Shown: piece by piece, positions 23,924 to 26,308 of the stretch
Layout of the letters: each line of letters starts with the position of its first letter
Position numbering within the stretch: the first letter of the stretch is position 1
From: Escherichia coli
GTDB lineage: Bacteria; Pseudomonadota; Gammaproteobacteria; Enterobacterales; Enterobacteriaceae
Length of the DNA stretch: 64,000 nt
Assembly: GCF_041248615.1 (NCBI RefSeq)
Contig: NZ_CP158425.1
Reading direction: 5' to 3' (one strand)
Translations under genes and position numbers: made by a program
The notes under the pieces: model-generated
The model's input: only the letters and a program-made list of their open reading frames with translations
What the model was told of the DNA's origin: nothing
Database searches by the model: none

Positions 23924-26308
23924 TTATACGACCTGCCTGACCATCCTCATCAGAAGGCGGTTTAACAGTCCTTTCGCTGTCGGGCGATTGCTATCGACAT
24001 AGTAAAAACCTGTTTTGGTCGTACCGTGAGCACTGCTCAGCACCCTCAGTTCCCAGATAACGTCACGGATAACGCCGCCATTTTCTGGCTTAAGGCATTC
24101 AGATAAATGGCGCATGAAACGAGCTCTTACGGCACGGTAATAGCGGAACTCCTCTGGCTGGTTAGTATTTTCTTTCACCCGGAGTCGCTGGTTACACAGA
24201 GTTAGAACTGCATCCATCATTCCCGCCTTCAGCTTCGCCTGGATCGCACCTTGTTGCTGTTCCCTCTCACCTTCGAGTAACGTTAAGATTCTTTCTCCGA
24301 GTGCCGTCTTGTTGTGTACGTGCAACTGTACACAGGCAGCTACGCATGCCCAGAATCTGAACTTTTTTATCTGTCCACGCAATTTCCGGGCTACAACCTG
24401 ACGGTATGCAGTATCGCTGAGTATTTTAAAACGCCGACTGGCAACCAGCTCTGGAAGCGACACTCTTTCGCCTATCCCCAGGCGGGAAAAGGTTTGTCCC
24501 CGTTGTGCGAGACGATGATAGACAGCGCCCTTCCCTTTTGAAATTCGGACCGCGCCATAACGAAGAAGATACTGAGCAGCAGTCGTTGGAGTAAACTCAC
24601 CGTCAGCGATGCTCTGGCGTAACCCGTCGTATTCATGCCAGATAATCCAGGACGCCGTATCTTCTTCAACAGTCAGCTCATCCTCTTCCTCGAATGCCAC
24701 GACGACAGAACTGCTCTCTCCGGTCTTTAGGCTACGTGAAGCCCTGGGGTCAGCCTGCCCGTCAAAATAGGTCATCAGCGGCAACGTATCAGTCAGTCCA
24801 TCATAAGCTGTACCGAACCGGCCTCCGGGCAGTTTCATCCAGAGTGGAGCTGGCATTGGTGTACGGGCCACAGGCAGCATGTCAGGCTCATCCTCAAGAA
24901 GGTCCAGATCGGCCTCTTCCCAGACTCTGCGATAGATCTCAATTGCCCGAAACGGGCGAGGGTTGAAACAGTGCAACGACCAGAGGAAATCAACGTGGAT
25001 CACGTTTGCTTCATGTACAAGCCGAAATTGTGGCTCAGCCATACGACGGTTATAAGCCGTATCGTCCACCTCGCCGGAAAGTAGCTTTCTGCGATGCTTT
25101 GCCGCACGTCTGGCTTCAACATAATCAAGGCTGCAACAGACATGAAAAAGACGTTCAGTCAGGGACGAAGAAAAGATATTGGGTTGAAGACGCACATACC
25201 CGCCTTCGAACACTTTACGACCGATATAATCCCGCAGGCTCCAGTCGTACTGGATCTTAGAAAGAAATCGCTGAAGACGACTTAGGCCTGCCTGATAACC
25301 ATATTTCTCAGGGTCAGTGCGAAGGAGCGTTTCCATTGAATGGTCAACCCCTACGGCTGTGCAAAGCGAGCACCCATATCTAGCCCCACAAGCTGAGGTT
25401 CGCGTGGGTTTCTCCGGCGACCAGATACACTCTCCGGTGGCGTCTTTATAAAGCGTTGCCAGGCTGAAGTTATCCGGCATAAAGCTTGGTAAAGGGAAGC
25501 GGGATTCGGAACCACAGGCCATTAGAAAAGACCAGATGTCCTGAGTGCGCCACTCCTTTACTGGATAGAGTTCACCACCGTGCTCAGTCAGGGTTACTTT
25601 CCTCGCCTGCCCTCCCATTTTGAGGATATTTCCGGCCCTTCGGGCACTTTCATCATCCCTGGAGCCCAGCATCAGGCATACCCTGCTTCGTACGGATGCC
25701 GGGGCGTTTTTTAGATAACGAGCTTTGGCCTTGCGCAGGGGGGCGATTTTGTAGTCGGTTGAGCACTGACGGGTTGAAGAATTAGTCCAGGTCGGAAGTC
25801 CACGTCCAGTCAGAATGCGGCCTACCCAGCTCTGCGTAAGAGACGGTTGGGCGACAAGGACTGTGACCGGTAGCTGGTGTTCAGCAATGAACATTCTAAG
25901 CTGGTTGAGAACCTGTGAAGCCTGATAGTGCATCTCAGGGTTTTCGATCAGCGTATCGGACATCTGAATGAAATGATGTTCGCTGATATTTGTGCCGTTA
26001 CGTACTGCCCTGATCAATGCCATCAGAAATAGGTGAAGAAGAGAATGGGAGTCTTTACCGCCACTGTATCCCACGCACATCGTCCATCCGTCCGTAATAG
26101 CCTGATAAATAGCAGATGTGGCTGACGTGACCAGAGAAGAAAGACTCACAGTCTCCTTTTCATCGGTATAGTTCAGATCGGCATCGGTTGTCAGGGTCTC
26201 CCAAACATCAGCCCATTTATCATGTTTCAAAATGGCAGCATTAGCCGCCTCAGGAAAAATAACTTCTGAGGGTAATTCAAGGAATGAGTCACTTTTTTCA
26301 ATAAACAT
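23924..26308 (-). CDS. large PP-loop ATP-pyrophosphatase / PAPS-reductase-like protein (DndC/IbrA-like N-domain)
   Basis: 794-aa ORF with the VGYSGGKDS PP-loop near the N-terminus; long uncharacterised C-terminal extension. Confidence 0.55.
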   Translation of the reverse strand: MFIEKSDSFLELPSEVIFPEAANAAILKHDKWADVWETLTTDADLNYTDEKETVSLSSLVTSATSAIYQAITDGWTMCVGYSGGKDSHSLLHLFLMALIRAVRNGTNISEHHFIQMSDTLIENPEMHYQASQVLNQLRMFIAEHQLPVTVLVAQPSLTQSWVGRILTGRGLPTWTNSSTRQCSTDYKIAPLRKAKARYLKNAPASVRSRVCLMLGSRDDESARRAGNILKMGGQARKVTLTEHGGELYPVKEWRTQDIWSFLMACGSESRFPLPSFMPDNFSLATLYKDATGECIWSPEKPTRTSACGARYGCSLCTAVGVDHSMETLLRTDPEKYGYQAGLSRLQRFLSKIQYDWSLRDYIGRKVFEGGYVRLQPNIFSSSLTERLFHVCCSLDYVEARRAAKHRRKLLSGEVDDTAYNRRMAEPQFRLVHEANVIHVDFLWSLHCFNPRPFRAIEIYRRVWEEADLDLLEDEPDMLPVARTPMPAPLWMKLPGGRFGTAYDGLTDTLPLMTYFDGQADPRASRSLKTGESSSVVVAFEEEDELTVEEDTASWIIWHEYDGLRQSIADGEFTPTTAAQYLLRYGAVRISKGKGAVYHRLAQRGQTFSRLGIGERVSLPELVASRRFKILSDTAYRQVVARKLRGQIKKFRFWACVAACVQLHVHNKTALGERILTLLEGEREQQQGAIQAKLKAGMMDAVLTLCNQRLRVKENTNQPEEFRYYRAVRARFMRHLSECLKPENGGVIRDVIWELRVLSSAHGTTKTGFYYVDSNRPTAKGLLNRLLMRMVRQVV

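What the first reader, a model, noticed from the sequence alone, without database searches (positions are those of the whole stretch)
23924..26308. 794-aa PP-loop / PAPS-reductase-like protein with a long uncharacterised C-terminal extension
The N-terminus carries the SGGKDS PP-loop typical of PAPS reductase, DndC and IbrA-like proteins, but the protein is about twice the usual length. PAPS-reductase-like proteins occur in DNA-modification defence systems and in the IbrAB regulator pair. Here it sits with small unknown genes and its own palindromic motif upstream. It may be a DNA-modification or anti-defence enzyme.
Basis: partly seen in the sequence, partly recalled or inferred. Interest (0 to 1): 0.55.

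Follow-up and report, generated by a model that had tools for sequence, protein, structure and literature searches.

The report
Stand-alone DndC-like enzyme on IncHI2 plasmid
A large drug-resistance plasmid carries, without any of the usual partner genes, an intact relative of the enzyme that puts sulfur into the DNA backbone, fused to a 320-residue tail of unknown fold; its function has not been studied, and it may be a one-protein nucleic-acid modification or counter-defence enzyme.

Summary
The 794-aa ORF (23924-26308, minus strand) and its SGGKDS PP-loop are real. The window is the backbone of an mcr-1 IncHI2 plasmid, and the gene occurs in 991 plasmid records. Residues 47-464 are homologous to canonical DndC (hhalign 99.9%, E 3e-33). 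The PP-loop and five cysteines, which align with DndC's cysteines, are invariant in 90 family members. It is not DndC itself: it scores 118 bits against a 290-bit cut-off, and the plasmid has no DndA/B/D/E. It is not IbrA (no DUF3440) and not CysH. Residues 471-631 form a family-specific alpha/beta module found in only 324 of 1.84 billion cluster representatives, always in this position. Residues 632-794 form a basic helical tail that about half the family lacks. Neither part matches any profile or solved fold. The family is found on plasmids and mobile-element-like contigs and is absent from phages. Its neighbours are not conserved, except for a true DndB homologue next to the short 626-669-aa forms. 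Truncated and internally deleted alleles show the gene is dispensable. The upstream "palindrome" is no better than chance, and leading-region status is unproven. Most likely it is an autonomous nucleic-acid sulfurtransferase serving plasmid establishment or counter-defence; this is inferred, not shown. I rate it a new variant of a known kind, of moderate interest.

The parts
23924..26308 (-). Complete CDS, 794 aa plus stop: stand-alone DndC-family PP-loop protein
   Evidence: ORF list. 100% identical copies occur in IncHI2 plasmids. AF2 model has mean pLDDT 90.2 and pTM 0.81.
26144..26308 (-). Acidic N-terminal extension, aa 1-55 (pI 4.1); aa 1-23 predicted disordered
   Evidence: pLDDT below 50 for aa 1-23. 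Low occupancy and conservation in the family alignment. Charge calculated.
24917..26170 (-). DndC-homologous region, aa 47-464: Rossmann PP-loop core, Cys-rich loop and helical subdomain
26048..26065 (-). PP-loop motif S82-G-G84-K85-D86-S87 (ATP pyrophosphatase / adenylation site)
   Evidence: S, G, K, D and S are present in 89 of 90 family members; the remaining row has a gap. The same motif is described for DndC in PMC6435447.
25763..25765 (-). Invariant C182 (RQC), aligning with RWC of DndC
   Evidence: Present in 89 of 90 members; the remaining row has a gap. Alignments.
25361..25429 (-). Cys-rich segment, aa 294-316 (GEC294 ... AC307G ... GC313SLC316): putative [4Fe-4S]/persulfide site
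   Evidence: All four cysteines are present in 90 of 90 members. They align with DndC GEC, SCG and GCWTC. The loop at aa 304-308 is the only low-pLDDT internal segment. Cluster binding itself is inferred from the DndC literature.
24416..24898 (-). Family-specific alpha/beta module, aa 471-631; includes invariant R603 and near-invariant P486, G504, A552 and G585
23927..24415 (-). Basic all-helical tail, aa 632-794 (pI 10.3; 29 K+R against 14 D+E); present only in the ~790-860-aa members
26309..26480 (.). AT-rich intergenic region upstream (28.5% GC); site of the claimed palindrome, which is not significant
26481..27814 (-). Two acidic unknown genes directly upstream (149 aa, pI 4.8; 263 aa, pI 4.4) plus the only promoter-like site nearby (27814->27787); possibly co-transcribed with the 794-aa gene
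   Evidence: ORFs and annotation. No family hits. Promoter-like consensus match, which is not above the shuffle expectation. pI. Co-transcription is inference only, and these genes are not conserved beside the IncC homologue.
29492..30742 (-). Orphan type II-like DNA methyltransferase (416 aa), 3.2 kb upstream in the same co-oriented array; context, not a demonstrated partner
   Evidence: PADLOC MTase_II 1.2e-46. A 50%-identical copy exists in IncC, but not next to the IncC homologue.

Best explanation
The gene encodes a catalytically intact, stand-alone paralogue of DndC, the PP-loop ATP pyrophosphatase and [4Fe-4S] sulfurtransferase of DNA phosphorothioation. It is carried as an accessory module on the backbone of MOBH conjugative plasmids (IncHI2 here, and also IncHI1 and IncC).

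Proposed mechanism:
- The PP-loop (S82-x-G84-K85-D86-S87) uses ATP to adenylate a phosphate or carbonyl oxygen of a nucleic-acid substrate.
- Sulfur comes from a host cysteine desulfurase such as IscS. It is relayed through the conserved cysteines (C182, C294, C307, C313, C316) and displaces AMP.
- The family-specific alpha/beta module (aa 471-631) and the basic helical tail (aa 632-794) supply the substrate binding that DndD and DndE (or SspB/SspC, or the DUF4007 fusion of BrxP) provide in the known systems. One polypeptide would then be enough.
- The biological role would be plasmid establishment or counter-defence, by marking or protecting plasmid DNA or by interfering with sulfur-based host immunity.

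Shown here: homology to DndC, conservation of the catalytic residues, the absence of partner genes, the novelty of the C-terminal half, the distribution on plasmids and other mobile-element-like contigs, and dispensability.

Inferred: Fe-S binding, sulfur transfer, a nucleic-acid (DNA) substrate, and the counter-defence role.
For: - Homology to DndC over aa 47-464: hhalign 99.9%, E 3e-33; PADLOC DndC models down to 4e-38; NCBIfam DndC 6e-34.
- SGGKDS and five cysteines are invariant across 90 members at 24-100% identity, and they align with DndC's RWC, GEC, SCG and GCWTC. This indicates purifying selection on catalysis.
- DndC's SGGKDS motif, its [4Fe-4S]-dependent ATP pyrophosphatase activity and the substitution of DndA by IscS are documented in PMC6435447.
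- The model is confident (pLDDT 90), and the extra domains are folded.
- The tail has pI 10.3.
- There is a precedent for a PAPS-reductase fused to DNA-binding domains: BrxP-DUF4007 in BREX type 4 (PMC12839542).
- The family is found on plasmids and mobile-element-like contigs: about 2,800 plasmid records for the wider family, and absent from phages.
- It typically sits in co-oriented arrays of small unknown genes together with orphan methyltransferases, RadC and toxin-antitoxin genes.
- A true DndB homologue is adjacent in the 626-669-aa clade, which ties the family to Dnd-type biology.
- A PAPS-reductase family is listed among leading-region gene families in PMC11541004, supplementary file 3. 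Whether it is the same family was not established.
Against: - No experiment exists for any member. No paper was found on this gene.
- Canonical phosphorothioation needs DndD and DndE, and none is present anywhere on the plasmid.
- The C-terminal module has no recognisable nucleic-acid-binding fold and is mildly acidic (pI 5.1).
- About half of the family lacks the basic tail.
- Neighbours are not conserved between IncHI2 and IncC, so context gives little functional constraint.
- The co-oriented array has the opposite orientation relative to mobI in IncHI2 and in IncC. An early, T-strand-templated 'leading region' expression cannot therefore hold for both.
- Roughly one third of IncHI2-type records carry the gene incomplete, interrupted or truncated. 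Whatever it does is frequently dispensable.
Confidence: 0.4

Rival explanations
1. It is an RNA-directed or small-molecule-directed PP-loop/Fe-S thiolase or adenylating enzyme, comparable to TtcA, TtuA, NcsA or ThiI acting on tRNA. It would reprogram host translation or metabolism for the plasmid's benefit and would not touch DNA.
Against: The closest relatives by a wide margin are DndC models (E 1e-33 to 1e-38) and not tRNA thiolases. All DndC-specific cysteines are retained. A DndB homologue is adjacent in one clade. Orphan DNA methyltransferases are frequent in the same gene arrays.
Confidence: 0.15
2. It is a regulatory protein and not a modification enzyme. It would be analogous to IbrA (with the ParB-like IbrB), or would act within the DndB regulatory circuit, controlling expression of plasmid or host genes.
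For: The NCBIfam model PRK06850 scores slightly better than the DndC model; I recall it as IbrA/YbdN-like, which I did not check. PAPS-reductase proteins of this branch pair with ParB/DGQHR proteins: here a DndB-like gene sits upstream of the short forms. DndB is a transcriptional regulator of dnd operons (PMC6435447).
Against: No DUF3440 domain was found in the query or in 29 members. No ParB/DndB-like gene exists anywhere on the IncHI2 plasmid. Strict invariance of the ATP-binding loop and five cysteines points to catalysis. No helix-turn-helix or other DNA-binding domain was detected.
Confidence: 0.12
3. It works only together with host Dnd/Ssp components. Either it is a hijacker that plugs into the recipient's DndD/E-IscS complex so that incoming plasmid DNA acquires the host's PT mark and escapes DndFGH, or it is a decoy that titrates those components.
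For: DndC forms complexes with IscS, DndD and DndE (PMC6435447). The query keeps the DndC-homologous core to aa 464. Salmonella and E. coli hosts of these plasmids can carry dndBCDE. A preprint states that a phage PAPS reductase promotes evasion of host Dnd (10.64898/2026.07.27.740549); I could not trace the primary reference.
Against: Identity to the enterobacterial DndC is only about 30%, and the region after aa 464 is unrelated, so conservation of the interfaces is doubtful. Dnd systems are sporadic (PMC8569181), whereas the gene is a widespread backbone gene in about 1,000 IncHI2 and about 700 IncC records. The family is absent from phages.
Confidence: 0.1
4. It is the modification half of a plasmid-borne restriction or exclusion system, paired with one of the HNH nucleases in the same array (for example 22282-22815). 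It would mark plasmid or host DNA as self.
For: An HNH endonuclease gene lies 1.1 kb downstream on the same strand, with weak similarity to the retron/PtuB HNH. An HNH gene also lies about 7 kb away in the P. aeruginosa megaplasmid context. PT-based systems are R-M-like.
Against: The HNH gene is not conserved beside the homologues in IncC or in the short-form contexts. Three unrelated small genes separate the two. HNH genes are scattered across the plasmid. No PADLOC system model matched the neighbours that were scanned; the HNH gene itself was not scanned against PADLOC.
Confidence: 0.06
5. It is a housekeeping-type PAPS/APS reductase (CysH-like) that supplies sulfite for sulfate assimilation.
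Against: The Pfam hit is weak (E 3.7e-5). No CysH NCBIfam model matched. The protein is about three times longer. It is plasmid-borne, absent from core genomes, and homologous to DndC through the Cys-rich and helical subdomains that CysH lacks.
Confidence: 0.01

Closest known systems
DndC / DptC (sulfurtransferase of the DndABCDE DNA phosphorothioation system; NCBIfam TIGR03183)
   Same: Homologous over aa 47-464 (hhalign 99.9%, E 3e-33). It shares the SGGKDS PP-loop and all five conserved cysteines in the RxC, GEC, xCG and GCxxC contexts. One clade has an adjacent DndB homologue.
   Different: It scores 118 bits against the curated 290-bit cut-off and is about 30% identical. No dndA/D/E genes are on the plasmid. 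The last ~116 residues of DndC are replaced by an unrelated ~330-residue extension. It is carried on conjugative plasmids and not in a defence island.
SspD and BrxP (PAPS-reductase components of the Ssp and BREX type 4 phosphorothioation systems)
   Same: The PP-loop PAPS-reductase core. BrxP is likewise a long fusion protein in which extra domains (DUF4007, a BrxA/SspB-like DNA binder) are attached to the catalytic core (PMC12839542). It is therefore the nearest architectural analogy for a single chain combining enzyme and substrate binding.
   Different: The BrxP model matches only weakly (E 4.7e-6). According to PMC12839542, BrxP lacks the DndC-specific cysteine dyad, which this protein has. 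No DUF4007, PglZ, BrxC or BrxL genes are nearby. The C-terminal domains are unrelated in sequence and fold.
IbrA / YbdN-type proteins (PAPS_reduct + DUF3440, paired with ParB-like IbrB/YbdM)
   Same: The same branch of the PAPS-reductase superfamily. PRK06850 matches at E 1.2e-37 over aa 60-364; I recall this model as IbrA/YbdN-like and did not verify that. The habit of pairing with a ParB/DGQHR-type protein is seen in the short-form clade.
   Different: No DUF3440 domain. It scores 130 bits against a 536-bit cut-off. No ParB-like partner is on IncHI2. It is about twice as long.
CysH (assimilatory PAPS/APS reductase) and the FAD synthase PAPS domain
   Different: Only the core fold is shared. 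There is no CysH model hit, the size and genomic context differ, and the extra Cys-rich, helical and C-terminal domains are absent from CysH.

Membership tests
DndC (Dnd phosphorothioation sulfurtransferase) | Scores above the curated NCBIfam equivalog cut-off for TIGR03183 | tested here: not met
   117.6 bits against a cut-off of 290.4.
DndC (Dnd phosphorothioation sulfurtransferase) | SGGKDS PP-loop and the conserved cysteines of the [4Fe-4S]/persulfide site | tested here: met
   The motif and five cysteines are invariant in the family and aligned with Salmonella DndC. Actual cluster binding cannot be tested with these tools.
DndC (Dnd phosphorothioation sulfurtransferase) | Encoded in an operon with dndD and dndE (with or without dndB and dndA) | tested here: not met
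   No such genes appear in the window, in the rest of the 238-kb plasmid annotation, or by tblastn for DndB. Compare the canonical operon.
DndC (Dnd phosphorothioation sulfurtransferase) | Produces phosphorothioate linkages in DNA | not testable with these tools
   Needs LC-MS/MS or iodine/PAA cleavage of DNA from cells with and without the gene.
IbrA / YbdN-type PAPS-reductase proteins | DUF3440 C-terminal domain | tested here: not met
   No DUF3440 hit in the query or in any of the 29 family members scanned.
IbrA / YbdN-type PAPS-reductase proteins | Adjacent ParB-like (IbrB/YbdM) partner gene | tested here: not met
   None in the window or elsewhere on the plasmid. A DndB (DGQHR) gene is adjacent only in the 626-669-aa clade.
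BrxP (BREX type 4) / SspD | PAPS-reductase with DUF4007/SspB-like DNA-binding partner or fusion, and neighbouring BrxC/PglZ/BrxL or SspABC genes | tested here: not met
   Only a weak BrxP hit to the core (4.7e-6). The C-terminal half matches no PADLOC model. The neighbours scanned have no BREX or Ssp hits, and the annotation lists none.
CysH (assimilatory PAPS reductase) | Protein of about 245 aa (general knowledge) matching CysH models; chromosomal cys regulon context | tested here: not met
   No CysH NCBIfam hit. The Pfam PAPS_reduct hit is only E 3.7e-5. The protein is 794 aa and lies on a plasmid backbone.
Leading-region (early-transferred, T-strand-encoded) anti-defence genes of conjugative plasmids | Located within the first genes entering the recipient and encoded so that the T-strand is the template | tested here: inconclusive
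   In IncHI2 the gene is about 30 kb from the expected oriT (upstream of mobI) and points toward it. In IncC the homologue is 59-95 kb away, in an array with the opposite orientation relative to mobI. I found no published transfer polarity for MOBH plasmids. No ssDNA-promoter-like structure lies upstream.
The uncharacterised 'long DndC-like' family defined here | DndC-like core followed by the conserved alpha/beta module (query aa 471-631, invariant R603) | tested here: met
   The query is the reference member. The family comprises 324 representatives at 50% clustering. The 90-member alignment is, and AFDB members align over about 560-835 columns with TM (target-normalised) about 0.65-0.93.

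The most novel reading that the evidence does not exclude
The family is a self-sufficient, single-polypeptide nucleic-acid sulfur-modification enzyme, either a DndD/E-independent phosphorothioation enzyme or a new thio-modification enzyme. The major multidrug-resistance plasmids (IncHI1, IncHI2, IncC) would use it to mark their own DNA and evade recipient immunity. Its C-terminal module would be a previously unseen substrate-recognition fold.
Probability: 0.2. Interest if true: 0.85.

Novelty: new variant of a known kind. Interest (0 to 1): 0.5.

Why it matters
IncHI2 (an mcr-1 carrier, as here), IncHI1 (MDR typhoid) and IncC are among the most important vehicles of antibiotic resistance, and most of their backbone genes have no known function.

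This work shows that all three carry an intact but partner-less paralogue of the DNA-phosphorothioation enzyme DndC, with a C-terminal half that resembles nothing known. That turns an anonymous 'PAPS reductase family protein' annotation into a specific hypothesis that is cheap to test.

If the enzyme modifies plasmid DNA or RNA by itself, it would be the first single-protein sulfur-modification system. It would also be a new way for plasmids to get past recipient defences, and a possible tool for site-specific backbone modification.

If it does nothing detectable, the frequent natural truncations suggest a decaying relic, and the annotation can be left as it is.

Tried and rejected
1. Palindrome or regulatory motif upstream: inverted-repeat search, promoter/terminator scan, ssDNA folding of both strands and motif recurrence all came out at chance level. 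Rejected.

2. DUF3440/IbrA membership: Pfam on the query and on 29 members was negative.

3. Identifying the C-terminal half:
- sequence against PDB;
- PADLOC and NCBIfam at E<=10;
- Foldseek against AFDB50, which returned only uncharacterised family members;
- a profile search of 1.84e9 representatives, which returned only the same family.
No fold or function could be assigned.

4. Hidden partners on the plasmid: NCBIfam and PADLOC on the neighbours; tblastn of DndB, the short PAPS reductase and DUF1643 against the whole plasmid; neighbour conservation against IncC and nine other contexts. No partner was found.

5. Leading-region status: I looked for the transfer polarity of MOBH plasmids in PMC11541004, PMC6414798 and PMC7498323 and did not find it. 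The IncHI2/IncC orientation comparison argues against a uniform T-strand reading.

6. Literature on the gene itself in IncHI2, IncHI1/R27 and IncC: nothing found.

7. The primary source for 'a phage PAPS reductase evades Dnd' (ref. 56 of preprint 10.64898/2026.07.27.740549) could not be traced.

8. Phage homologues: none has the C-terminal module.
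Full report
**What is there.**
The ORF is real: ATG at 26308, stop at 23924-23926, minus strand, 794 aa. GYSGGKDS lies at aa 80-87. The window is identical to positions 174074-238073 of E. coli plasmid p14408_M1 (NZ_LT599829.1). That plasmid is IncHI2A, MOBH, MPF_F, 238 kb, and carries mcr-1. The gene is annotated there only as 'phosphoadenosine phosphosulfate reductase family protein'. Megablast finds it in 991 plasmid records from Escherichia, Salmonella, Enterobacter, Klebsiella and others, and 898 of these are predicted to be conjugative.

**The N-terminal 60% is a DndC homologue.**
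- Pfam gives only a weak PAPS_reduct hit (E 3.7e-5, aa 78-264).
- PADLOC DndC models reach 4e-38, and one aligns aa 63-474.
- NCBIfam DndC (TIGR03183) gives 6e-34, but at 118 bits against a curated cut-off of 290. PRK06850 gives 1e-37, at 130 bits against a cut-off of 536.
- I retrieved a bona fide dndB-C-D-E operon from Salmonella Infantis. Profile-profile comparison of a 90-member family alignment with its 543-aa DndC gives 99.9% probability and E 3e-33. Query aa 47-464 align to DndC aa 24-427.
- In the family alignment, S82, G84, K85, D86, S87 and C182 are present in 89 of 90 sequences, and the remaining row has a gap. C294, C307, C313 and C316 are invariant in all 90, as are R217, E220, R224, W259, Y287, R310, D322 and others.
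- The five cysteines align with the RWC, GEC, SCG and GCWTC cysteines of DndC.
- DndC is documented as an SGGKDS ATP pyrophosphatase whose [4Fe-4S] centre is essential. It is charged by DndA or IscS (PMC6435447).
- The protein is therefore a catalytically intact DndC paralogue. It is not CysH, because no CysH model hit it. It is not IbrA, because no DUF3440 domain was found in the query or in 29 members.

**The C-terminal 40% is new.**
- Similarity to DndC ends at about aa 464.
- The model shows an alpha/beta module (aa ~471-631) followed by long helices (aa 632-793).
- The module is conserved family-wide, with invariant R603 and near-invariant P486, G504, A552 and G585.
- Alignment occupancy falls to about 0.4-0.5 beyond aa 700, so roughly half the members lack the tail. 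Their lengths cluster at about 580-690 aa, against about 790-860 aa for the long forms.
- The tail is strongly basic (pI 10.3), whereas the module is mildly acidic (pI 5.1).
- A profile of aa 468-794 searched against 1.84 billion cluster representatives finds only 324 proteins at E<=0.001. In the longer, apparently full-length hits the match begins about 390-550 residues in. The short hits look like fragments. The module is thus a signature of this one family and not a mobile domain, and canonical DndC proteins do not contain it.
- PADLOC, NCBIfam and PDB sequence searches are empty even at E<=10.
- Foldseek against AFDB50 returns only uncharacterised family members. The best is Q935R1 of S. 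typhi (809 aa, 75% identical), which I take to be the IncHI1 counterpart.

**Distribution and context.**
- Relatives of about 800 aa occur in IncC plasmids (817 aa, 47% identical, about 700 records) and in Providencia, Moellerella, Aeromonas, Photorhabdus and Vibrio.
- Forms of 626-669 aa occur in other enterobacterial plasmids.
- Forms at about 23-30% identity occur in Pseudomonas and Burkholderia megaplasmids and on environmental contigs.
- No phage record carries the family.
- In IncHI2 the gene lies within a 26-kb run of 35 minus-strand genes (14169-40299). The only interruption is an inserted IS3 element. The run lies downstream of mobI, the MobH relaxase and traD.
- Most genes in this run are small and unannotated. 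The run also holds an orphan MTase, an HNH nuclease, hok, relE and an Ig-like giant protein.
- Comparable co-oriented arrays surround the homologues elsewhere.
- The immediate neighbours are not conserved. Between IncHI2 and IncC only the orphan MTase (50% identity) and one hypothetical protein are shared, and neither is adjacent to the IncC homologue.
- The whole IncHI2 plasmid has no DndA/B/D/E or Ssp gene, no second PAPS reductase and no DUF1643 gene.
- The single recurrent partner is a true DndB homologue. It is 27% identical to Salmonella DndB (E 2e-23) and carries the DGQHR motif. It lies immediately upstream, or two genes upstream, of the short forms. These are the forms that lack the basic tail.

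**Is it a leading-region gene?**
- The array points back toward the expected oriT upstream of mobI, which fits T-strand-templated early genes.
- A PAPS-reductase family is listed among leading-region families in the supplement of PMC11541004.
- However, I found no published transfer polarity for MOBH plasmids.
- In IncC the array containing the homologue has the opposite orientation relative to mobI and lies 59-95 kb from it.
- The upstream region also shows no ssDNA-promoter-like structure.
- I therefore treat leading-region status as unproven.

**Dispensability.**
- Only 660 of the 991 records carry at least 80% of the gene in one piece. Two of the best matches have an ISVsa5 insertion.
- One lineage carries an in-frame deletion of aa 155-345, which removes the catalytic core. 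Another keeps only aa ~311 to the end.
- The gene is therefore accessory and not needed for replication or transfer as such.

**The upstream 'palindrome'.**
The 172-bp AT-rich gap holds only weak imperfect repeats. It folds no better than shuffled sequence, has no recurrent motif, and contains no promoter-like or terminator-like site in the simple scans. The nearest promoter-like site lies upstream of the two acidic genes that precede the ORF. Co-transcription with them is possible but unproven.

**Interpretation.**
- What is shown is an intact DndC-type active site, held under purifying selection across a family found on plasmids and other mobile-element-like contigs. It is fused to a novel module and operates without the DndD/E machinery.
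- The most economical mechanism is an autonomous nucleic-acid adenylation and sulfur-transfer enzyme. Its extra domains would replace the substrate-handling partners. The nearest precedent is BrxP, where DNA-binding domains are fused to the PAPS-reductase core (PMC12839542).
- DNA as the substrate, and counter-defence as the role, are inferences from the DndC/DndB kinship and the company of orphan methyltransferases.
- RNA thiolation, a regulatory role, dependence on host Dnd proteins, and a plasmid-borne R-M-like role all remain open. They are ranked under the rival explanations.
- I rate the finding as a new variant of a known kind: moderately interesting, and directly testable by mass spectrometry and mating assays.

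Noticed in passing
Related proteins P0018-P0022 and P0029/P0030; plasmid hits H53-H57; H1/H2: Natural decay alleles of the gene exist. One is a 600-aa in-frame deletion of aa 155-345, which removes the catalytic core. Others are 484-486-aa N-terminal truncations in plasmids of about 260-370 kb from Enterobacter, Serratia, Leclercia and Citrobacter. Others carry ISVsa5 insertions. About a third of the records lack an intact copy.
   Followed up: partly
L007:4488-5558, L005:8900-9970, L011:5870-6955: A true DndB (DGQHR) homologue sits directly upstream, or two genes upstream, of the 626-669-aa family members, which lack the basic tail. No dndD or dndE accompanies it. This is a two-gene DndB/DndC-like module without the rest of the Dnd system.
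   Followed up: partly
L015:16344-17459 and L015:30558-31046 (IncC); L013:5022-6998: IncC carries a second, unrelated short PAPS-reductase gene (371 aa) about 1.1 kb beyond the repA-type (RepB family) gene, and a DUF1643 gene. On an environmental conjugative-element contig, a 405-aa PAPS_reduct gene and a DUF1643 gene lie immediately upstream of a family member. Neither is present on IncHI2.
   Followed up: partly
window 14169-40299 compared with L004/L015 (IncC): The 26-kb co-oriented array of 35 genes is antiparallel to mobI and the relaxase gene in IncHI2. The equivalent IncC array is parallel to mobI. If transfer polarity is conserved in MOBH plasmids, only one of the two arrays can be T-strand-templated.
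   Followed up: partly
window 18179-19392 (+), flanking 19395-19772 (-): An IS3-family element (orfA/orfB) is inserted into the DUF3085 gene, leaving a 125-aa remnant. In pSTM6-275 that gene is intact (163 aa), and an IS150 lies elsewhere.
   Followed up: no
window 29492-30742 (-), 30911-31519 (-), 41474-42235 (+): The window holds three methyltransferase-like genes. One is a 416-aa type II-like orphan DNA MTase, 50% identical to one in IncC. One is a 202-aa class-I SAM-MTase-like protein with only weak spermidine-synthase/KsgA hits. The third is annotated 'methyltransferase'.
   Followed up: partly
window 26481-26930 (-), 26982-27773 (-), 28000-28257 (-), 23435-23674 (-): Several small flanking proteins are markedly acidic (pI 4.4-4.8; the 263-aa protein has 42 D+E against 16 K+R) and match no family. 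Acidic proteins in such arrays are sometimes DNA mimics; this was not tested.
   Followed up: no
window 35746-38136 (-) and 43689-46109 (+): Two ~800-aa proteins are annotated as 'Ig-like domain-containing'. The RSP gene proper (annotated 'IncHI-type conjugal transfer protein RSP') lies elsewhere on the plasmid, at record positions 24976-29280.
   Followed up: no
window 15503-15784 (-): A 93-aa hypothetical ORF is flagged by RGI as 'Brucella suis mprF, defensin resistance' at 100% identity in PLSDB. This is almost certainly a database artefact and not a resistance gene.
   Followed up: no
window 24095-24097 (codon 738): The window encodes Cys at aa 738 (LSECLKPE), where the cluster representative P0001 has Tyr (LSEYLKPE). 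This is a single substitution in the poorly conserved tail.
   Followed up: no
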